From Heptranchias perlo (Eukaryota): a stretch of 64,000 nt of DNA. Position 1 is the first letter of the stretch. Each line of letters starts with the position of its first letter. The stretch lies in contig NC_090339.1 of the NCBI RefSeq assembly GCF_035084215.1, positions 58,900,001 through 58,964,000 of the forward strand, in the 5' to 3' direction. Shown here one piece after another: positions 11,710 to 41,400 of the stretch. The notes beneath the pieces are model-generated. The model saw nothing but the letters and a program-made list of their open reading frames with translations, ran no database searches and had not been told where the DNA came from. Made by a program: the position numbers and the translations under genes.

Positions 11710-11947
11710 GGGGGTGATTTTAAACCCCAAGAACGGGTGGGTTGGGGGCGGGTGAGAGTTGAAAATAGTTGTTTTTTTGGGTCGCAACCGCAAAACTTTC
11801 GGACTTTGCATTCCCAGTGGGAAGCCTGGACTTTTACGCCTCGATGTTAAACCCAGAAATAAAGCCGGGTTGCGGTCGCAAAAAACAACTGTTTTCAACT
11901 TCGATCTGACCCCAACCCACCCGTTCTTGGGGTTTAAAATCACCTCT
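11710..11947. mobile_element. MITE (PIF/Harbinger-like), copy 1
   Basis: Long TIR GGGGGTGATTTTAAACCCCAAGAACGGGTGGGTTGGGG; 3-bp flanks TTT/TTT; near-identical copy at 32875-33117. Confidence 0.8.
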
Positions 11948-13340: not shown

Positions 13341-14224
13341 ATTAGGTGCACCATCTTTGAAAGGAAATGTTGTACAAGGTGGGTCTCCTGGAAAGTGAGT
13401 TAAGAAATTGAGCATAGGTGGGGAGACAGGAAGTCATTTTAATTCACTGCCACAAATCCATGTGTCCAGTCAATTTGTATACCCATGAGAATTGAACATT
13501 AAAAAAATTTGGAGTAAATGGGAGTTTGAGGCCAACCAGATGGATTGAAATGGTCCTTTCTGGTCCTGTACATTCTTATATTTCTCTGAACAGATGTGTT
13601 CAGTGTTTATTTCGAATTATCTGAATGTCTGAAGTGTTTATAAGGGCAAGTGTAACTGAGTCTGCCTTCAAAAAGCAAGGCGTCGGTTTGGCCGTGTCAG
13701 ACAGTGTGCAAAATGGAAATGTCCACCAGTGCGGTAGGGGATGCTCTCTGATCATGACAAATTGGGCAAGATTGCCTTACCCACAGGCATTGCAGGACCA
13801 GATTTCCTTTCAGCGACACACTGGCCAAAAACCCAGCACCAGCCAATTTAATTATTGCATCCTGGTGGCAGCACAATCAAGCGCCTGGGAAAGAAGCCAG
13901 TGATGTGCATGTGTTCAGCTCATCCTTCTACTGCATTTAATGTGATGAGAGGTCCAAATGGGCAGACACCAAGGTCACGATCAGCCATTCGCAGCTATTC
14001 ATTTCAAAGCACTGGGGGTAGATACACCTGTTTGTATTACCCTTAAGGTGCTTTGAGAATGTGTTTAAGTGAAAGAACAAACAGGTTCCTTATAAACTTT
14101 CAGAACAGCATCAATATTTGCACTGGTACTTGGTGAATGAGATATACTGATACAGTGTTAATAGAGCTTTCTAAGCCATATAACTCATCAGAATGCAAAC
14201 AAGGGATAGTAGTACATAAAAATG

Positions 14225-14330
14225 GAAAGGATGGGAGGGAAAAAAAGGAAGGAAGAAAGGAAAGGAAGGAAAATAAAGAAGGAAGGGAGGGAGGGAGGAA
14301 AGAAGAAAGGAAAGAAGAGAGAAAAAGAAA
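14225..14330 (+). repeat. GA-rich (GGAA/GAAA) low-complexity repeat extending a SINE tail
   Basis: Purine-only run GGAAGGAAGAAAGGAAAGGAAGG... Confidence 0.85.
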
Positions 14331-14346
14331 GAACTTTCATTTTTAT

Positions 14347-14580
14347 GATGTGGAGATGCCGGTGATGGACTGGGGTTGACAATTGTAAACAATTTTACAA
14401 CACCAAGTTATAGTCCAGCAATTTTATTTTAAATTCACAAGCTTTCGGAGGCTTCCTCCTTCCTCAGGTAAACCAACATTTTTCCACATTTACCTGAGGA
14501 AGGAGGAAGCCTCCGAAAGCTTGTGAATTTAAAATAAAATTGCTGGACTATGACTTGGTGTTGTAAAATTGTTTACAATT
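14347..14580. mobile_element. Penelope-like element remnant forming a 92-bp hairpin
   Basis: Arms 14381-14472 / 14489-14580 (1 mismatch); 34-nt tail; TSD TTCATTTTTAT at 14336-14346 and 14581-14591. Confidence 0.85.
14488..14528 (+). ncRNA. Minimal type I hammerhead ribozyme motif (mirror copy on the minus strand at ~14433-14472)
   Basis: ATTTAC-CTGAGGA-A-GGAGG-AAG-CCTCC-GAAA-GC-TT-GTGAAT; stem I 6 bp with one G.U, stem II 5 bp. Confidence 0.75.
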
Positions 14581-15623
14581 TTCATTTTTATAGCAGCTTA
14601 TCAAATCTCAGAAGATATCCCAAAGATTTTCACATCCAATTAATTACTTTATAAGTCCAGTCCCTGTTATGTCAGCAAATGTGGCAGCCATTTTATGCAC
14701 AGGAAGATCCCACACACAGCAAGGAGGTGGATGATCTGTCCAATCCTTTGGTTGAGGGAAAAATGTTGGTTAGGGCACTGGGAAAATTCCTTGCTCTTCT
14801 TCGAACACAGTGATGGGAAAATTCCTTGCTCTTCTTCGAACAGAGTGATGGAACCTCTGGGACAGTCAGACAGGATCTGGTTTAACATACCAACCAAAGG
14901 GCAGCGCCTCTGGCAATGGAAGACTCCTGCTTCTGTGACAGGTCATCCGAGATTCTGTGGCCCTATCCTGGACTGGGGCTCAAACCCACAGCCTCCTGAC
15001 TCAGGGCCCAGATCGCAATACGCACAAATCAATTCAAATAAGACATGAAAAGATTTAAGTTCCAATCACGTTTATTGCGTTCATGGTTGACTCTTAACTG
15101 CCCTCTGAAGTAGCCCAGCAAGCCAATCAGTTGTACCTTCACCTTTTCAGGGCAACTAGGGATGGGCAATAAATGCCAACCTTGCCAGCGATGTCCTATT
15201 CCAATGACATGCGAAACTGAGAATCCTCTGCCTGGTTAAATGGACATGAAAGGTCCCATGGCATTAAAATCAAATCAGGATATCTCCTGAGGGCTGATTT
15301 TCCTGGGCACTGTTTGGCGGGGGCAGCGCACCAGAAGTGTGCTGTACTCGGGAAGCACAGGGAGGTTGGAATCTCCTGGCGTTCCTCATTATAATGAAAA
15401 GGGCAGAGTTCTGGTGCTGATGGAGAAATTCCATTTAGTGCCTGCCCTTGACCTGCTCCCGTTGTTATTACAGGAAATCTGTGTGCAGAGGTCTCTGACG
15501 TTCATTTTCCTGCAGTTGCTGTTACTGTGCCCTGTTCAGGTGCAATAACCATCTGCAAAGCCGTATCGGAAATTCAGCTGCAGTGCTATTCAGGTGCAAA
15601 AATGGATTAGTGCCCCTTTTTCC

Positions 15624-15958
15624 TCCAGTCCTACAACTCTCCGAGATCTCTGCGCTCCTCCAATTCTGGCCTCTTGCGCATTCCCAATTTTAATCGCTCC
15701 ACTATTGGCGGCCGTGCCTTCAGCTGCCTAGGCCCTAAGCTCTGGAATTCCCTCCCTAAACCCCTCCGCCTCTCCACCTCTCCCTCCTCCTTTAAGATGC
15801 TCCTTAAGACCTACCTCTATGACCAAGCTTTTGGTCACCTGTCCCAATATCTCTTTATGTGGCTCAGCGTCGAATTTTGTCTGATTACGCTCCTGTGAAG
15901 CGCCTTGCGACGTTTTACCACGTTAAAGGCGCTATATAAATGCAAGTTGTTGTTGTTG
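15624..15958 (+). mobile_element. L2-type LINE 3' fragment, low divergence
   Basis: ORF RSTIGGRAFSCLGPKLWNSLPKPLRLSTSPSSFKMLLKTYLY; tail GGCGCTATATAAATGCAAGTTGTTGTTGTTG. Confidence 0.85.
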
Positions 15959-24180: not shown

Positions 24181-24786
24181 AAAGAAAGAACTTGCATTTA
24201 TAAACTGTCTTTCACATCCTCAGGACATCCCAAAGTGCCTCACAGCCATTTTTTTTTGTGTGTACTCATTGTTATTATGTCCAATTTTTGTCAGGTAAGA
24301 GTATCGAGGGATATGACGCAAAGGCGGGGAAATGGAATTGAGGTGCAAATAAGTGATGATCTAATTGAATGGCGAAGCAGGTCTGAGGGGCTGAATGGCC
24401 TACTCCTGGTTCCTATGTTATGTAGGCAACAGCCAAAGAATTCAAGTTTCGTAACCTTTAGTACAAATGATGTTTCTCCAGTTCAAAACCGAGTTATTAT
24501 TATTCTTTGTGCTTTCAAGTAAACTCCAATGATTGAAAATCTATTTTGGGTCCATTAAGCACAACTCCACATTCTCAAGCATTGTAATCCTTCACTGTAA
24601 TCGTTTCTGATTGACTTCTGACATCAAATAGGTTTCTATATAACTATACACAGCACAGAACACAGGCCTCACTATATCACAGTATAATCTGGGGTTCTAA
24701 ATGAAACCATGATATGGGGCTAATGTTCTCCTTTCACCTGCGTGGCTTATTTTGCTAGATTTGAAAATGTTGAGGCATCCACTTAC

Positions 24787-25716
24787 CTCGCCAGGTTGAG
24801 GGAGTGTCAGCTTGGGCAACTTGCACTTGGCACTTGCTGTGCTCGGCTTTCCATCCAAGAGGCTCCCAAATGACTGGCTGCTAAAAGCATCCTCAATTTC
24901 CATTAGTGGCTTCAGCTCAGGCGACTCAATCGGGGCTTGATCTTGCCCATCCATAGGTCTCACGTAAGCAGTGGGTTTCTGCTGTACCATGCTTGACTTA
25001 GAATGAAGTCCTGGAGGGAAATTCTGAGCGGAGAGTGCGCTGCTACAAGGTATCAGGGATGTAGAAGGGGCCGGGGATCCACAAGCATGAGAAGTAGCGT
25101 CACTTTCAACAGGGGACTTTACGTGGCAAGTGTCTTTATAGGAATGATCTGCACTAGTGGGCTTGGAGTGGCTGTGCCTTTTGGAACGTGAAGTGGTATT
25201 GGGACTGGGTGACTGCGACTTAACACATTCGTCGACGCCAGCCTGGTGATCACCTTTGTGCAGCTCAGTCTGACTGCTGTATAGGTCACTGTACCTGTCC
25301 TGGGCTTGCTCGTGTGTGGAAGGATGCTTTCCTCTGCTCTGCTGATTGCTGGGCTGGCTATTAGACTGCACACTGTGTCCACTGCCAGAGCCATGTCCAC
25401 TGCGAGACCAGTCCATCCTGGATTTCTTGTTGCTCTGGTGTCCATGTAACAAAGTAGAACTCAACGACAAAGAAGAGGAAGGTGGAGGCATGCATGATGA
25501 AGAATGACTGCTACTTTGGTGGGACGGCGCCATTTTGGTTCTTGGCTCGGTGAAGAAACTCGGCTCCATTTTTTCGACAGGAGTCTGTGGAATCAAAGAC
25601 TTGGGGATCCCCACAAGGTGACTCTGGTTTGAACGGTTCGTTAACAGATCCTTCATCTCGTCATAATTCCCTAGCGTACTCTGCACACGATTTGAAAGAG
25701 CATCGCCCTTGCTGGT
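24787..25716 (-). CDS. AFF2: AFF2/FMR2 coding exon 3 (930 nt, phase 0/0), AF4/FMR2 N-terminal region including the SIAH degron KPTAYVRPM
   Basis: Translates TSKGDALSNRVQSTLGNYDEMKDLLTNRSNQSHLVGIPK...QNFPPGLHSKSSMVQQKPTAYVRPMDGQDQAP...SFGSLLDGKPSTASAKCKLPKLTLPQPGE, closest to AFF2 among AFF paralogues as I recall them. Acceptor TTTCTTTCAG at 25726-25717; donor GAG|GTAAGT at 24786-24781. Confidence 0.93.
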
Positions 25717-27939
25717 CTGAAAGAAATTAGATGGCATACAAAACTAAACAATAATTATTTTAATATAGCACAATGAAAAATCCTTGTATTACATAGGATC
25801 CTGATTCAGCTATCCTGACCAGGAATCATTTGTTCACCACATGACTTCAGATTATCTAGCTTGTTTTGTATATTGTGTAATAGTTACGGTATTGAACTGA
25901 TAACCCAAAAATCAATAAATCTGATCATTTGTGGGGGTAGGGTAGTCATAAAAAAAAACCCAATTGGTTTGCTAGTGCCCTTCAGGGAAGGGAAGATGCC
26001 ACCGCCACCCATCCTGGCACACACGTGACTTCAGTCTCACATGGTGCGGTTGACTCTTAATGCCCACTGAAGTGGCCAAACAAGCTACTCAGCTGTTAAA
26101 ACAAATCGCTATGTTGAAGAAGGACCCCATCTCCCTTACCATGGACGGGCAATAATTAAGGGCATCGCGGGCATCACCAGCATCTTGAGACCAAACAGAA
26201 AAGTTGATTTGGGATTCGCCAACTGTCTGTTTGAAACAGACTATCCAGAGCAAGGCATCCCACTTCTGCCATGTTACTGATAATGCCAGAGGATGTAAAC
26301 CCAATCCTTCGAAGGTCATTCACTTAGCCCTCTGGTTAGTTGCCAACAGCACAATTCTCTTTGAAGATCGCATGCAAAAAGGCAGCAGAATAAACACCCA
26401 GTGAACCAGTCTTTGATTTTCTACCTTTTAAGTGTGGGAACAATACTGCTAAGGATTGAGAGGTTGGGGTTAAACATTAAACACTTGGCTACATAAATTG
26501 TACTTGTTAGGAAGAAAGACTTAAAATAAATTTTTAAATGTGTGTATTTATCAGCCCTGAGTCAAATGATATGACAGTCATATTACAATCAATAAAGTGC
26601 TATTTTTGATACTTTCTTTCTATTCATCATAAGCTCAGAAGATTTGTGCTGCAAATAATACAGTCACATTGTAAAAATACTTCAGTAGTACTACTTACCC
26701 ACTTACTAGGACTAGATAGCACTGGAATCGGAAAAGATTGGTGGGGGCTTTCAAATGATGGACATGTAACTACACTTTGCTATCAGCAGTTAAACACACG
26801 CCAGCAGGAAAATTGGACAGCTTGTTACACGCACACTAAAGCTACTATTTGGGTGTTTTGGTCGATAACTGGTAGGTATGAGAAAATAACTATCCTACAC
26901 AAGCCGAACAAGTTGATCAAAGTGTAAGAGATGATTTTTTTTTTCTTGTTGAACTTGTCAGCCCTTCACTTCTTACAGGAGTAAGAATGCTGTTTCAGTC
27001 AGGGCTTTTTTTTTTGTTGTTGTCTCCAACACAAGGACCAATAGATTGGATCCCTGTAGAATCTTCACTCCCAGCCTGTTTTTGAGAAGCTAGTGTCAGG
27101 CCACGAAGAGTGATGGACAGATGTTGAGCTGTGCTGATCTGCACTCCGGGTGTCCCTGGTATTAGTTTCTGCCCTGCACCCACCCCCCCCACCACCACCC
27201 CTCTCCCTTTGCTATGCTGCAACTCTTGACACCTCAAAGATAGAACTTGCTGATAAGATCCACCTCCGAAATGTTGGTTAAGCTCCGCAAATTTAATGTC
27301 AAAAATATTACTTACAACCTCAGACACGGATCAACATTGGCAGCCACAATATTCTGTGTCAATATGGGGAGGGCAGGCCACTGTATTTTTACACCCACTC
27401 CGCAGTGTATCCCTCTCACCTACAAGTGAAGCCGTTAATTCATTGACACCTTCTTTAAATCCAATTTTTTTTTCCCTCTGTGCAGCAGCTAGGAAGAAAA
27501 TATTGCTTTCACCTAAAGAGGCCTGGCATCCTTGAATGCCCCAACAGTCTGCTCGATTCCTCTAATTCAGAGCTGGGAACCATGAGGGCCTTGGTTCCTT
27601 GGCTCTCGTTTTCTTAGTTCTAACTCCGATCGAAAATGTTGCAATTTGGTCACCAACAAGGAATTTTATTCAAAGCCGATCTTGTAACGTAAATTAGCTA
27701 AATTTGGGAACTGGATATGTGGTGATTTTCTCACACATTGCCCGAATTTAACAGAAATTGCTGCAAATTGATTAATAGATGGCATGATTCAAAGGGAATC
27801 AGAGTATTAAAATTCTATCACTAAAATTTTTCCGTTCTTAATGTGCAAACAAGGTAAAAGTAAGGAACAGCCAAACACCTCTAGAAATAACACCAAAGTT
27901 AAGCTGAAATAACTTTTTAACGCATTTGGACCAGGCTAC

Positions 27940-28964: not shown

Positions 28965-31779
28965 GGGCTGGATCTTGCTGGAATAATAACGGCGTGTTAA
29001 CGACGCACGCCATTATTAATGCGCAAATCGGCCAGCGGGTTCAGGGGATTAAGAGATACGCCGTGAGTTGCAAGCCTCCAGAGCTTTGCACAAATAGCAT
29101 CTTGCCCTTAGCCACCCTGTTATTTTTAAGAACTTGCTGGATTTGCACATTAATTGCCCATTAAACTCGCTGCAGAAAGTTATGTCTGGTAATTAAGAGC
29201 GTAAGTACCCTTTTAACGACATGATCGTTGTTAATGCAATGCCAATCAACCTCTGTGGCCCAGAAAGGGAACAATTTAAAGTGTTCCGTCCCATTCCTGC
29301 ATGTAGTAAATTCTTCTTAGAGATTTTAAAAATGTAGCATTTTTTCAGGTTTTTTTGTCTCTCCCTTAACCCAATCTTTCTTTCCCTCTCTTTATTTCTT
29401 TCTGTACCTGATTTGACTCTAATTCACCCTCCTTCTCAGTCCTAGAATCATAGAATGGTTACAGCACAGAAGGAGGCTATTCAGCCCATTGAGCCCATGC
29501 TGGCTCTTTGTAAGAGCAATCCAGTTAGTCCCATTCTCCCGCTCTTTCCCTGTAGCCCTGCAAATTTTTTCCCTGCAAGTGTTTATCCAATTCCTTTTTG
29601 AAAGCCACAATTGAATCTTCTTCCACCACCCTTTCAGGCAGAGCATTCTAGATCGTAACTACTCGCTGCTTAAAAAAGTTTTCCCTCATGTCGCCTTTGG
29701 TTCTTTTGCCAATCACCTTAAATCTATCTCCTCAGGTTCACGGCCATTCTGCCAATGGGAACAGTTTCTCTTTATTTGCTTTATCTAAACAATTCATGAT
29801 TTTGAACACTTCTATCAAATCTCCTCTTAACCTTCTCTGCTCTAAGGAGAACAACCCCAGCTTCTCCAGTCTATCCACGCAACTGAAGTCCCTCATCCCT
29901 GGAACCACTCTAGTAAATCTTTTCTGCACCCTCTCTAAGACCTTCACATCCTTCCTAAAGTGCAGTGCCCAGAATTGAACACAATACTCCAGTTGTGGCC
30001 AAACCATTGTTTTATAAAGATTCAGCATAACTTCCTTGTTTTTGTACTCTATGCCTCTATTTATAAAGCCCAGGACCCCACATGCTTTTTTAACCTCTTT
30101 TTCAACCTGTCCTGCCACCTTCAATGATTTGTGCACATATACCCCCAGGTCTCTCTGTTCCTGCACCCCCTTTAGAATTGTACCATTTAGTTTATATTGC
30201 CTCTTCTCGTTCTTCCTGTCAAAATGTATCACTTCGTACTTTTCTGCATTAACTTTCATCTGTCAAGTGTCCATCCATTTCACCTGCCTGACTATATCCT
30301 CTTGCAGAAAATTAATATCCTCCTCACTGTTTACTACACTTCCAAGTTTTGTGTCATCTGCAAATTTTGAAATTGTGCCCCATACGCCCAAGTTCACGTC
30401 ATTAATATATATCAAAAAAAGCAGAGATCCCAGTACCGACCCCTGGGGAACACCACTGTACACCTCCCTCCAGTCTGAAAAACAACCGTTCAACATCTAT
30501 TTCCTGTCACCTAGCCAATTTCGTACCCATGCTGCCACTGCCGCTTTTATTCCATGGGCTTCAATTTTGCTAACAAGCTCATTATGTGGCACTTTATCAA
30601 CCGCCTTTTGAAAGTCCATATACACAACATCAACCTCATCAATCCTCTCTGTTATCTTATCAAAAAACTCAATCAAGTTAGTTAAACGCGATCTGCCTTT
30701 AACAAATCCGTGCTGGCTTTCCTTTATTAATCCACACTTGTCCAAGTGACTATTACTTTTGTCCCAGATTATCGTTTCTAAAAGCTTCCCCAGCACCGAG
30801 GTTAAACTGACTGGCCTGTTGTTGCCGGGTTTATCCTTACACCCTTTTTTGAACAAGGGTGTAACATTTGCAATTCTCCAGTCTTCTGCCACCAACCCCA
30901 TATCTAAGGAGGATTGGAATATTATGGCCAGCAACTCTGCAATTCCCACCCTTACTTCCCTCAGCAACCTAGGATGCATCTGGGCCTGGTGACTTTTCTA
31001 CTTTAAGTACAGCCAGCCTTGTTAGTACCTCCTCTTTATCAATTTTTAGCCCATCCAGTATCTCAACTACCTCCTCTTTTACTGTGACTTTGGCAGCATC
31101 TTCTTCCTTGGTAAAGACAGATGCAAAGTACTCATTTAGTACCTCAGCCATGCCCTCTGCCTCCATGCATAGATCTCCTTTTTGGTCCCTAACCATCCCC
31201 ATCCTTCCTCTTGCAACCTGTTTACTATTTAAATGCCTATAGAAGACATTTGGATTCCCTTTTATGTTAGACACCAGTCTAATCTCATACTCTCTCTGCC
31301 GCTCTTATTTCCTTTTTCACTTCTCCTCTGTAGTTTCTATGTTCAGCCTGGTTCACACTTGTATTATCAACCTGACATCTGTCATACGCTCCCTTTTTCT
31401 GCTTCATCTTACTCTCTATCTCTTTCGCCATCCAGAAAGCTCTGGCTTTGGTTGCCCTACCTCTCCCCCTCGTGGAAATGTACCTGGACCGTACCCGAAC
31501 CATCTCCTCCTTAAAGGCCGCCCATTGTTCGATTACAGTTTTGACTGCCAATCTTTGATTCCAATTTACCCGGGCCTTCCTCTGTTTATTTCTCAATCCT
31601 TAAATCTCCTTGGTTGAGGAGATAGACTGTTGGTCCCGCCATTCACTAAGGTCCCAGATGCTCCTTTGCCCCCGTTATCAGCTCGCACTGCGCAAAAAAA
31701 TTGCGAGCTGAAGGGCGCAGGAAAAAGTCTAACTAACGACACACACCGCGAGATGCCCCACTCCAGCAAGATCCGGCCC
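28965..31779. mobile_element. ~680-bp non-autonomous DNA transposon split by a CR1 insertion
   Basis: TIRs GGGCTGGATCTTGCTGGA (28965) / TCCAGCAAGATCCGGCCC (31779); halves 28965-29442 and ~31576-31779 are collinear with the uninterrupted copy at 46479-47100. Confidence 0.75.
29443..31575 (-). mobile_element. CR1 LINE, 5'-truncated, disrupted ORF2
   Basis: KSPGPD, HPRLLRE, WRIANVTPLFKKG, QHGFVKGRS, GVPQGSVLG, KFADDTKL, RRLRGDLIEVFK; (TTCTATGA)n-type 3' end. Confidence 0.92.
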
Positions 31780-38440: not shown

Positions 38441-41400
38441 GAATCATAGAAAGTTACGGCACAGAAGGAGGCTATTTGGCCCATCGTGTCCGTGCTGGCC
38501 GAAAAAGAGCTACCCGGCCTAATCCCACTTTCCAGCACTTGGTCCGTAGCCCTGTAGGTTATGGCACTTCAAGTGCACATCCAAGTACTTTTTAAATGAG
38601 TTAAGGGTTTCTGCCTCTCCCACCCTTTCAGGCAGTGAGTTCCAGACCCCCACCACCCTCTGGGTGAAAAAATTTCTCCTCAGCTCCCCTCTAATCCTTC
38701 TACCAATTAATTTAAATCTATGCCCCCGATCACTGACCCCTCTGCTAAGGGAAATAGGTCCTCCCTATCCACTCTATCTAGTCCTGTCATAATTTTATAT
38801 ACTTCAATTAAATCTCCCCTCAGCCTTCTTTATTCCAAAGAAAACAACCCCAGCCTATCCAATCTTTTCTTATAGCTAAAATTCTCCAGCCCTGGCAACA
38901 TCCTCGTAAATCTCCTCTGTACCCTCTCTAGTGTAATCACATCTTTCCTGTAATGTGGTGATCAGAACTATACACAGTACTAAAGCTGTGGCCTAACCAA
39001 TGTTTTATACAGTTCCAGCATAACCGCCCTGCTCTTATATTCTATGCCTCGGCTATTAAAGGAAAGTATCCCGTATGCCTTGTTAATCATCTTATCTACC
39101 TGTCCTGCTACCTTAAGGGATCTGTGGACATGCACTCCGAGATCCCTTTGTTCCTCTACATCTCTCAGTATTCTTCCATTTATTGTGTACTTCCTTGCCT
39201 TGTTTGCCCTCCCCAAATGCATTACCTCACACTTCTCTGGATTGAATTCCATTTGCCACTTCTCTGCCAACCTGGCCAGTCCATTGACATCTTCCTGCAG
39301 TCTACAGCTTTCCTCCTCACTATCAATCACACGGCCAATTTTTGTATCATCTGCAAACTTCTAGATCAAGCCCCCCACATTCAAGTCCAAATCATTAATA
39401 TATACCACAAAAAGCAAGGAACTTATTACTGAGCCTTACAGAGCGCCACTGGAAACAGCTTTCCGAAAACACCCGTCAACCATTACCCTTAGCTTCTGGC
39501 CACTGAGCCAATTTTGGATCCAACTTGCTACTTTCCCTTGGATCCCATGGGCTTTTACTTTTTTGACCAGTCTGTCATGTGGGACCTTGTCAAAAGCCTT
39601 GCTAAAATCCATGCACACCACATTAAATGCACTACCCTCATCGACCCTCCTTGTTACCTCCTCGAAAAATTCAATCCAGTTAGTCAGACACAACCTTCCC
39701 TTAACAAATCCATGTTGACTGTCCTTGATTAACCCATGCCTTTCTAAATGATGATTAATACTGTCCCTCAGAATCGATTCCAATAATTTGCCCACCACCG
39801 AGGTTAGACTGATTGGCCTGTAATTATTCGGTCTATCACTTTCTCCCTTTTTAAACAACGGTACAATGTTAGCAGTCCTCCAATCCTCCGGCACCACATC
39901 TATAGCCAGGGAAGATCGGAAAATGATGGTCAGAGCCTCCATTATTTCCTCCCTTGCTTCTCTTAACAGCCTGGGATACATTTCATCCGGGCCTGACGAT
40001 TTATCTACTTTCAAAGATGATAATCCCCTTAATAATTCCTCTCTCACTACGTTTATCCCATCCAATATTTCACACTCCTCCTCCTTAACTATAATCTCTG
40101 CATCGTCCCCCTCTTTTGTGAAGATGGACGCAAAGTATTCATTAAGAACCGTACCCACATCTTCCGCCTCCACACACAGGTTACCTTTTTGGTCTCTAAT
40201 AGGCCCTACTCTTTCCTTACTTATTCTCTTGCTCTTTATGTATTGATAAAACATTTTTGGGTTTTCCTTATTTGTACTTGCCAGTATTTTTTCATGCCCT
40301 CTCTTTGCTTTCCTAATTTCCTTTTTAATTTCACTCCTGCACTTTCTATACCCCTCAAGGCTTTCCTCAGTGTTGAGCTTTCGGTGTCTAACATAAGCTT
40401 CCCTTTTTTGCCTTATCTTACCCTGTATGCTCCTTGTCATCCAGAGGGGTCTAGATTTGGCAGTCCCACCCTTTTTCTTTGTGGGAATATGTTTACTCTG
40501 AACCCCTTGAATCTCCTCCTTGAATGCCTCCCACTGCTCTGACACTGATTTACCTTCAAGCAGCTGTTTCTAGTCCACTTTTGCTAAATCACTTCTCAGC
40601 TTAGTAAAATTGGTCTTTCCCCAATTTAGAACTTTTGCTCCTGTTCTATCTTTGTCCTTTTCCATATCTATACTAAATCTAACTGAATTATGATCACTAC
40701 CACCAAAATGCTTTTCCACTGATACTCCTTCCACCTGCCCAGCTTCATTCCCCAAAACTAAATCCAGAACTGCCCCCCTCTTGTTGGGCTTGCTACATAC
40801 TGGCTAAAAAAGTTCTCCTGAATGCTTTTTAAGAATTCTGCACCCTCTATACCTTTTACACTGATTGTATCCCAGTTAATATTAGGGTAGTTGAAATCCC
40901 CTACTATTACTGCCCTATTGCTTTTGCACTTCTCAGAAATGTGCCTACATATTTGCTCTTCTATCTCCCTCTGACTGTTTGGGGGTCTATAGTACACTCC
41001 CAGAAGTGTGATTGCCCCTTTTTAGTTCTTTAGCTCAATCCATATGGCCTCATTTGATGATCCTTCTAACATATCATCCCTCCTCACAGCTGTAATTGTT
41101 TCTTTAACCAATATTGCCACCTCCCCCCTTCTTTTTTATCCCCCTCTCTATCTCGTCTGAAAACCCTGTAACCAAGAATGTTAAGCTGCCATTCCTGCCC
41201 CTGTTTAAGCCATGTTTCTGTAACAGCTAAGATGTCGTACTTCCACATGTCTATCTGTGCCCTTAGCTAATCTGCCTTATTCACTATACTCCTTGCATTG
41301 AGGTATACACCATTAAGCACTGCCAAACTCCTTTGTTGTCTAGTTTCTAACCTTTGTTTCCTCTGCCTTCCAAACTCACTTACTAATTTTCTGCCTTCCA

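What the first reader, a model, noticed from the sequence alone, without database searches (positions are those of the whole stretch)
14336..14591. 92-bp near-perfect palindrome carrying a hammerhead on each strand, inserted in a SINE tail
Seen: arms 14381-14472 / 14489-14580 with one mismatch, a 16-nt loop, an 11-bp TSD and a 34-nt tail. Plus strand reads ATTTAC-CUGAGGA-A-GGAGG(AAG)CCUCC-GAAA-GC-UU-GUGAAU; the mirror image lies on the minus strand. Against the 10649 copy, N7 (G vs C), the stem II loop and stem I differ while both cores and the pairing are kept, which suggests selection on the fold in the parent elements. There is an extra A between A9 and stem II. Inference: any transcript contains both the ribozyme and its antisense, so ribozyme folding competes with a long dsRNA hairpin (a possible ADAR or Dicer substrate). 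This is a non-coding, ribozyme-bearing Penelope derivative with at least two subfamilies.
Basis: partly seen in the sequence, partly recalled or inferred. Interest (0 to 1): 0.75.

Follow-up and report, generated by a model that had tools for sequence, protein, structure and literature searches.

The report
Fold-back Penelope stump, flank-copied centre
This palindrome is most likely a short leftover of a Penelope-type jumping gene in a known mirror-image insertion pattern, and its centre matches DNA just beside it, which suggests the two halves were copied separately and then stitched together by DNA repair.

Summary
In detail: 92-bp arms (one mismatch), 16-nt centre, 11-12-bp target duplication, 34-nt tail, and a minimal type I hammerhead motif on each strand. 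It is the known 'inverted truncated copy + tail + duplication' form of a Penelope-like element (PLE). A homologous end lies 3' of a GIY-YIG ORF in metagenome contig L011, whose best protein hit is a shark RT-endonuclease. Opposite-strand minimal hammerheads and the extra A are already published. It is not a palindromic unit that spreads as such: the 10649 copy has the hammerhead in one arm only, and other genomic copies fold back at many different points. The new clue is the centre. In both copies in the window it is the exact reverse complement of that copy's own tail-less flank (15 nt and 13 nt; controls reach at most 11 and 10). Most likely both ends of a staggered cut primed separate cDNAs, and these were joined by templated microhomology end joining. 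In this copy the hairpin is predicted to bury both ribozymes, so the dsRNA is probably a by-product. Editing, small RNAs and cleavage were not tested.

The parts
14336..14346 (.). left target-site duplication (11 nt; 12 with 14335)
   Evidence: identical to 14581-14591; equals the 3'-end motif of the host repeat
14347..14380 (-). 34-nt PLE tail (between the two inferred reverse-transcription start sites)
   Evidence: absent from the right arm; 33/34 identical to the 10649 copy; 98 + 54 contigs of run X1 leave the stretch at 14345/14346 into unlike sequence
14381..14472 (-). left arm: truncated pLTR end, element sense on the minus strand
   Evidence: 14347-14450 identical to a 104-nt contig of run X13
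14433..14472 (-). minimal type I hammerhead motif, C3 at 14467, predicted cut between 14439 and 14438
14471..14485 (+). junction: exact 15-nt reverse complement of 14757-14771; net filler about 14473-14480, overlapping the arms by 2 nt (left) and about 5 nt (right)
   Evidence: element continuation from loose ends
14481..14580 (+). right arm, element sense on the plus strand, no tail; 14481-14488 likely element sequence that the left arm lacks
   Evidence: contigs align from 14481-14486 and run on into shared upstream sequence
14488..14528 (+). minimal type I hammerhead motif, C3 at 14494, extra A 14501, palindromic AGCU at 14518-14521, predicted cut after 14522
14581..14591 (.). right target-site duplication
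14757..14771 (+). inferred template of the junction, inside the host repeat on the tail-less side
   Evidence: only other place in the window with this 15-mer; 0 of 6 other copies of the host repeat carry it
14216..15010 (-). host SINE-like repeat with simple-repeat tail (14216-14335), split by the insertion
   Evidence: about 70-77% identical to other copies in the window
10637..10848 (.). second insertion of a related type: 12-nt duplication 10637-10648 / 10837-10848, tail from 10649, arms 10685-10733 / 10791-10839, one hammerhead (C3 at 10769, minus)
10786..10798 (+). junction of the second insertion: exact 13-nt reverse complement of 10898-10910 in its own tail-less flank

Best explanation
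This is most likely a 5'-truncated, ORF-less insertion of an endonuclease-bearing Penelope-like element (Neptune/Nematis type) whose mirror-image form was likely built at this site: the endonuclease would cut both strands 11-12 nt apart, each end would prime its own short cDNA, and the two cDNAs would be joined by templated microhomology end joining. Inferred steps: (1) one cDNA starts at the outer start site and so carries the 34-nt tail, the other starts 34 nt further in and lacks it; (2) both stop just 5' of the hammerhead, near the element's predicted transcription start; (3) the tail-less cDNA folds back on its own resected flank strand, copies about 8-10 nt, and anneals to the other cDNA by 2 nt; (4) fill-in gives the palindrome and the duplication. 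Shown: the anatomy, the flank match in 2 of 2 copies, varied centres in other copies, the homologous end beside a GIY-YIG ORF. The hammerheads are passengers from the pLTR, are predicted to be locked in the hairpin in this copy, and would need a dimer to cleave. Odds: PLE remnant about 0.93; palindrome made per site rather than inherited about 0.85; two cDNAs plus templated joining at insertion about 0.6.
For: Anatomy matches the PLE pattern in PMC8557442 and PMC3846280 (passages). L011 carries the homologous end (outside the search pattern: 85% over 34 nt and 75% over 67 nt, E 7.6e-6, best other hit among the 17 loci E 0.58) about 275 nt 3' of a GIY-YIG ORF (PF01541, 23.4 bits, cut-off 22.6) with a CX5CXXC linker. 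Its best hit among 7 is shark protein P0001 (59% identity, RVT_1, 54-member cluster). A purified PLE protein cuts and extends both strands and starts at two sites separated by the tail (PMC11167929). Junction matches of 15 and 13 nt: controls reach at most 11 and 10 in 234 overlapping and 58 non-overlapping 1-kb windows; analytic expectation 6e-5 and 1.5e-3. Both are reverse complements and both lie on the tail-less side, the geometry given for hairpin-primed templated insertions in PMC7165422. Each arm at 14336 holds element sequence the other lacks. 13 of the 15 joints shown run arm-to-arm at 13 different point pairs, and the fillers listed differ. A TATA motif lies 39 nt 5' of C3 in L011 and in an X13 loose end about 37 nt 5' of C3.
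Against: Only two junctions could be read with their flanks, and the junction windows were chosen after the matches were seen. About 7 nt of the 13-mer in the second copy are also element-like, and its A-to-G change fits a snap-back from the tail-less cDNA only if priming used very short homology or the base changed later. The templates lie about 180 and 60 nt from the duplication, further than the roughly 15 bp over which polymerase theta finds microhomologies in PMC7165422. No PLE ORF is in the window (tblastn, no hit at E<=1) and no genome is held, so the parent is shown only by a 70-80% identical relative. One symmetrical joint centred on stem II (14450 to 14511) has about ten times the depth of the others, so some centres recur. 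The transcription start is predicted from motifs only; D. virilis Penelope has a TATA-less internal promoter. Element origin of 14481-14488 rests on loose-end consensus rows of low agreement (0.5) plus single X13 contigs.
Confidence: 0.6

Rival explanations
1. Same PLE origin, but the second arm was made by self-priming (fold-back) of one cDNA or RNA, and the flank-copied centre is a later scar from breakage and repair at the palindrome tip.
For: Self-priming is proposed for PLE head-to-head palindromes in PMC3846280. R2 cDNAs snap back on themselves or nearby target DNA (PMC11371274). Perfect palindromes pick up asymmetric central changes that stabilise them (PMC8701086). The joint centred on stem II is what self-priming on the stem II hairpin would give.
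Against: It must stop the copied arm at the tail boundary in both copies (within about 5 nt). A later break has no reason to use the tail-less flank in both cases (only 2 cases, so weak). The PLE protein extends both strands in vitro.
Confidence: 0.25
2. A non-autonomous palindromic family that spreads as a unit, with two hammerheads and an RNA switch between ribozyme and hairpin.
For: Very high abundance (19,004 contigs laid in run X1). Non-autonomous PLE derivatives exist (bioRxiv 10.64898/2026.07.22.740005). One centre recurs at about ten-fold depth.
Against: Centres match each copy's own flank. The second copy has one hammerhead. None of the 13 arm-to-arm joints shown keeps both cores, although copies that keep both would seldom appear as joints. 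The core is predicted fully paired.
Confidence: 0.07
3. The PLE reverse transcriptase itself, not host repair, jumped from RNA to flanking DNA and then to the other cDNA.
For: The templates are further from the cut than typical for polymerase theta. Template jumps are invoked for PLE inserts in PMC3846280.
Against: No direct evidence; size, AT-richness and orientation of the fillers fit polymerase-theta scars. The sequence cannot name the enzyme.
Confidence: 0.06
4. Assembly or chimeric-read artefact.
For: No listed contig spans the whole stretch or the centre. The best DNA runs may be the source sample.
Against: Target duplication, one-sided tail, one arm mismatch and a second independent example. 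A contig of X1 matches 14559-14778 with no difference.
Confidence: 0.02

Closest known systems
Complex insertions of EN+ Penelope-like elements: inverted 5'-truncated copy, 30-40-bp tail, target duplication (PMC8557442, PMC3846280; passages read)
   Same: Head-to-head arms, tail at one end, 11-12-bp duplication, AT-rich target, hammerhead in the pLTR.
   Different: No ORF at all; both arms are about 100 nt; the centre is copied from the local flank, which I did not find described in the passages read.
Minimal type I hammerheads of metazoan PLEs (PMC4209133; results and discussion read)
   Same: Core, extra nucleotide between 9 and 10.1, G10.1-C11.1, palindromic 15.2-16.2; pairs on opposite strands 100-700 bp apart were reported in Schistosoma.
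   Different: Stem II is 5 bp (7-8 bp in the Schistosoma families); the two cores are only 27 nt apart; cleavage of this variant is untested.
Poseidon element of Anolis (PAc; PMC11167929; main text read, supplement not)
   Same: Two start sites separated by the tail, both strands cut and extended, AT-rich targets.
   Different: The relative found here has the Neptune/Nematis linker; no ATG lies between the hammerhead and the tail end here, whereas the PAc ORF starts at stem II; later joining steps are left open in that paper.
Templated insertions of polymerase theta-mediated end joining (PMC7165422) and R2 snap-back junctions (PMC11371274); passages read
   Same: Short AT-rich filler, reverse complement of the flank, short overlaps at both ends.
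   Different: Joins two cDNAs rather than two chromosome ends; templates 60-180 nt from the cut; enzyme not identified.
Non-LTR retrozymes (bioRxiv 10.64898/2026.07.22.740005; first fifth and passages read)
   Same: Non-coding, type I hammerhead, PLE-derived.
   Different: Retrozymes are head-to-tail tandem units; this is head-to-head, which cannot supply the same-strand partner for a dimer.

Membership tests
EN+ PLE insertion | inverted 5'-truncated copy next to the main copy | tested here: met
EN+ PLE insertion | 30-40-bp tail at one end only | tested here: met
   34 nt here, about 36-39 nt at 10649
EN+ PLE insertion | target-site duplication | tested here: met
   11-12 nt in both copies
EN+ PLE insertion | hammerhead motif in the pLTR | tested here: met
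EN+ PLE insertion | RT + GIY-YIG ORF joined to this pLTR | tested here: inconclusive
   none in the window; a homologous pLTR follows a GIY-YIG ORF in L011; host genome not held
Neptune/Nematis clades | CX2-5CxxC linker before GIY-YIG | tested here: inconclusive
   present in L011 and shark P0001, but these are relatives, not the parent; no tree built
Minimal type I hammerhead | CUGANGA / GAAA core, NUH site, stems I and II | tested here: met
   stem I 6 bp, stem II 5 bp, site CUU; 84% of cells paired and 4 pairs changed on both sides in 6 sequences (core and two stem II pairs fixed by the search pattern)
Minimal type I hammerhead | extra nucleotide between 9 and 10.1; palindromic 15.2-16.2 | tested here: met
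   A14501; AGCU 14518-14521
Minimal type I hammerhead | self-cleavage (as a dimer or with protein help) | not testable with these tools
   needs an assay
Rfam hammerhead families | covariance-model match | tested here: not met
Non-LTR retrozyme | two or more head-to-tail units, each with a hammerhead | tested here: not met
   head-to-head here; two tandem-type joints exist at other loci
Palindromic non-autonomous unit (MITE-like) | same centre and ends shared among copies | tested here: not met
   centres differ and match local flanks
Polymerase theta templated insertion | 3-30-bp filler repeated or inverted from the flank, with short overlaps | tested here: met
Polymerase theta templated insertion | dependence on POLQ | not testable with these tools
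   needs a knockout

The most novel reading that the evidence does not exclude
PLEs insert by two-ended target-primed reverse transcription: both ends of the staggered cut copy the short stretch between the tail and the RNA's 5' end (a strong-stop-like run-off), there is no conventional second-strand synthesis, and host polymerase theta-type end joining stitches the two cDNAs, leaving a flank-copied scar on the tail-less side. Shark genomes would then hold thousands of natural records from which the unresolved last steps of PLE transposition can be read.
Probability: 0.4. Interest if true: 0.65.

Novelty: new member of a known kind. Interest (0 to 1): 0.38.

Why it matters
As an object it is one of very many truncated Penelope-like insertions, and the double hammerhead is a by-product. 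It matters as a record of mechanism. How PLEs make their inverted ends is called still undefined in PMC8557442 and left open in PMC11167929. Flank-copied centres on the tail-less side give a simple genome-wide test between two-ended priming with host end joining and the published self-priming idea. If many such hairpins lie in introns they would also be a large source of dsRNA, but nothing here shows that this has an effect.

Tried and rejected
No whole genome is held, so copies could not be collected or tested by R-scape. Rfam gave no hammerhead hit; the sub-threshold microRNA hits are generic hairpin matches. Pattern scans found nothing in viral contigs and nothing for the tail pattern in metagenomes. 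A wider hammerhead pattern gave 17 loci: 4 carry sequence like P0001 (L006, L008, L009, L011), 6 look like chance hits in bacterial genes (L002, L010, L013, L014, L015, L017; five of them have no stem I), and 6 JAAUYG loci form another family that I did not follow. Only 6 sequences went into the covariation count (A, B, L008, L009, L011, L012), chosen by me. No RNA holder was listed; X5 is only guessed to be RNA, its contigs cannot show strand, level or editing, and its A>G count (3) does not exceed that of DNA run X1 (7), which is no test. No difference at 5% or more was listed inside the hammerhead core in X1, but contigs break at variants, so I do not use this as evidence. Unconstrained folding of single arms did not clearly give the hammerhead fold (z -0.3 to -1.7). 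A two-copy cofold kept stems I and II between the copies but did not form the AGCU helix. An 8-nt match of the centre to 14677-14684 is within control range. Recalled motifs for the next AFF exon found nothing in the window. Literature: no paper held Penelope + pLTR + strong-stop; none of the listings (25 of 69 shown), 38, 57 or 61 (13 of 16 shown) suggests flank-templated PLE centres. Subscription journals, older PLE reviews and all supplements were not seen, so this is not proof that it is unpublished.

Full report
Observation. The described structure is there. The arms 14381-14472 and 14489-14580 pair at 91 of 92 positions around a 16-nt centre; a 34-nt tail (14347-14380) precedes the left arm; an 11-12-nt duplication frames the whole. 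The hairpin is far beyond chance (z = -23). Each arm carries a minimal type I hammerhead motif (C3 at 14494 plus, 14467 minus) with a 6-bp stem I, 5-bp stem II, an extra A after A9, a palindromic AGCU in place of helix III and a CUU site. The insertion sits in the last 11 nt of a diverged tRNA-headed repeat, just before its simple-repeat tail. From recall, not from a call, that repeat resembles shark SINEs of the SacSINE1/DeuSINE kind. An AF-4 (AFF) family exon on the minus strand at 24697-25743 ends in a splice donor, so both insertions are probably intronic; this is inferred, since I did not find the next exon.

Second copy. The copy at 10649 has the same plan: 12-nt duplication, tail, inverted arms. 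Its tail-less arm is only 49 nt and has no hammerhead. It is 89% identical to the first over 123 nt, while the two arms within each insertion are 98-99% identical. So each insertion's two arms came from one source type, and two hammerheads per palindrome are not a fixed design.

Parent. No PLE ORF lies in the window and no genome is held. A hammerhead pattern scan of metagenomes gave 17 loci. L011 is homologous outside the pattern too (85% over 34 nt and 75% over 67 nt, E 7.6e-6). About 275 nt upstream it has a GIY-YIG ORF with a CX5CXXC linker, the mark of Neptune and Nematis elements according to PMC8557442. Its best protein hit is a shark RT-endonuclease, P0001, 59% identical, in a 54-member cluster. 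This ties the sequence to a PLE pLTR through a relative, not through the parent itself.

What is known. Inverted truncated copies with a one-sided 30-40-bp tail are the typical PLE insertion (PMC8557442, passages; PMC3846280, passages). Minimal hammerheads with the extra nucleotide, and pairs of them on opposite strands, are in PMC4209133, where a monomer did not cleave and dimers cleaved weakly (results and discussion read). PMC11167929 (main text read) shows that a PLE protein cuts and extends both strands and starts at two sites separated by the tail; the later steps are left open. Two earlier AI notes on other shark genomes reach the same general reading; they are leads, not support.

Other copies. 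Run X1 gave 19,004 contigs on the 447-nt stretch (X1 may be the source sample). Of 15 joints shown (61 more hidden), 13 run from left arm to right arm, each at a different pair of points, mostly at depths of 30-100, and the fillers listed differ. One is a head-to-tail tandem and one an internal skip. One symmetrical joint on the stem II loop is about ten times deeper. Loose ends show that the family runs on upstream of the hammerhead and that 14481-14488 is probably element sequence. A common variant changes the stem I U-G pair to C-G (14470 A>G, 14491 T>C).

The centre. 14471-14485 is the exact reverse complement of 14757-14771, and 10786-10798 of 10898-10910. Both templates lie in the copy's own flank on the tail-less side. 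The same junctions reach at most 11 and 10 nt in 234 overlapping and 58 non-overlapping control windows; rough expectations are 6e-5 and 1.5e-3. None of six other copies of the host repeat has the 15-mer, so the template was this local copy. The centre therefore formed here. Caveats: two cases, windows chosen after the fact, and part of the second match is element-like. Searches of earlier notes for this feature found none.

Mechanism. Most likely the endonuclease cut both strands 11-12 nt apart and each end primed a cDNA, one from each start site. Each arm holds element sequence the other lacks (the tail on the left, 14481-14488 on the right), which a simple DNA fold-back of one cDNA cannot give without later trimming. 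A reverse-complement filler is what a 3' end makes when it folds back on its own resected strand (PMC7165422, passages), here the strand carrying the tail-less cDNA. The overlaps are about 5 nt for priming and 2 nt for the final join. The arms end 5, about 13 and about 15-19 nt upstream of C3. A TATA motif lies 39 nt upstream of C3 in L011 and about 37 nt upstream in an X13 loose end, so the cDNAs may simply have run off the RNA's 5' end; 8 of 12 arm-to-arm joints in X1 have one arm starting within 10 nt of C3, but the reference biases this. The main rival is self-priming followed by later repair at the palindrome tip. The enzyme cannot be named from sequence, and the templates are further away than usual for polymerase theta.

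RNA. A read-through transcript of either strand is predicted to form the long hairpin with both cores fully paired, and a minimal hammerhead needs a same-strand partner, so cleavage from this copy is unlikely. In the second copy the hammerhead lies in the loop of a 49-bp stem but is predicted to misfold. Selection on the fold is not shown by the two copies (hammerhead 32/37, arm 44/52, tail 33/34). Over six relatives, 84% of cells pair against 74% in shuffles and four pairs change on both sides, which fits selection in parent elements, with the caveats of a small, hand-picked set. ADAR and Dicer action are possible from general knowledge but untested.

Verdict. A real but ordinary kind of object, a new member of the known PLE inverted insertions. 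The flank-copied centre is a modest, testable clue to an open step in PLE transposition. Supplements of the cited papers, which I did not read, may already show such junctions.

Noticed in passing
run X13 on window 14347-14450: A run labelled as another organism (E) holds a 104-nt contig identical to the tail and left arm (depth 231) but almost none of the host SINE, while organism F (X14) has the SINE and not this element. Low-level cross-contamination or horizontal transfer; not resolved.
   Followed up: no
joint 14450 to 14511 in run X1: A symmetrical fold-back centred on a variant stem II loop, about ten times deeper than most other joints: a recurring centre, as self-priming or 4-nt annealing at stem II would give.
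   Followed up: partly
L011 1176-1358 and L006 3-491: [quoted passage not shown]
   Followed up: partly
window 14344-14346; L009 1468-1470: More X1 contigs align to 14345 (98) than to 14346 (54), and L009 ends in ATG at the equivalent place: the tail may end at the ORF start codon, with 2 nt shared with the target.
   Followed up: partly
run X5 on 14347-14466: In this run (RNA is a guess) summed depth is several times higher over the tail than over the hammerhead, unlike DNA run X1. Contigs cannot show level or ends.
   Followed up: no
14467-14472 and 10769-10777 (+): The antisense of the hammerhead 5' edge reads like a splice donor in both copies (CAG/GTAAA, CAG/GTGAGT).
   Followed up: no
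24697-25743 (-): Large exon of an AF-4/AFF family gene (PF05110, E 1e-81); the rest of the window below it may be one intron.
   Followed up: partly
14779-14848: 35-nt tandem duplication (34/35 identical) in the host repeat, starting 8 nt after the junction template.
   Followed up: no
11713-11789 / 11868-11944; 10135-10458 / 15621-15956: A 77-nt inverted pair (86%) with a 78-nt spacer, and two inverted copies of another repeat that enclose the 10649 and 14336 insertions.
   Followed up: no
L001, L003, L004, L005, L007, L016: A separate family of minimal hammerhead-like motifs in one metagenome assembly; L004 and L005 show nearby inverted partial copies.
   Followed up: no
5880-6413 (+), 29738-30997 (-), 38980-40569 (-): LINE-type reverse transcriptase fragments (RVT_1 for two of them), unrelated to the PLE protein by tblastn.
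   Followed up: partly
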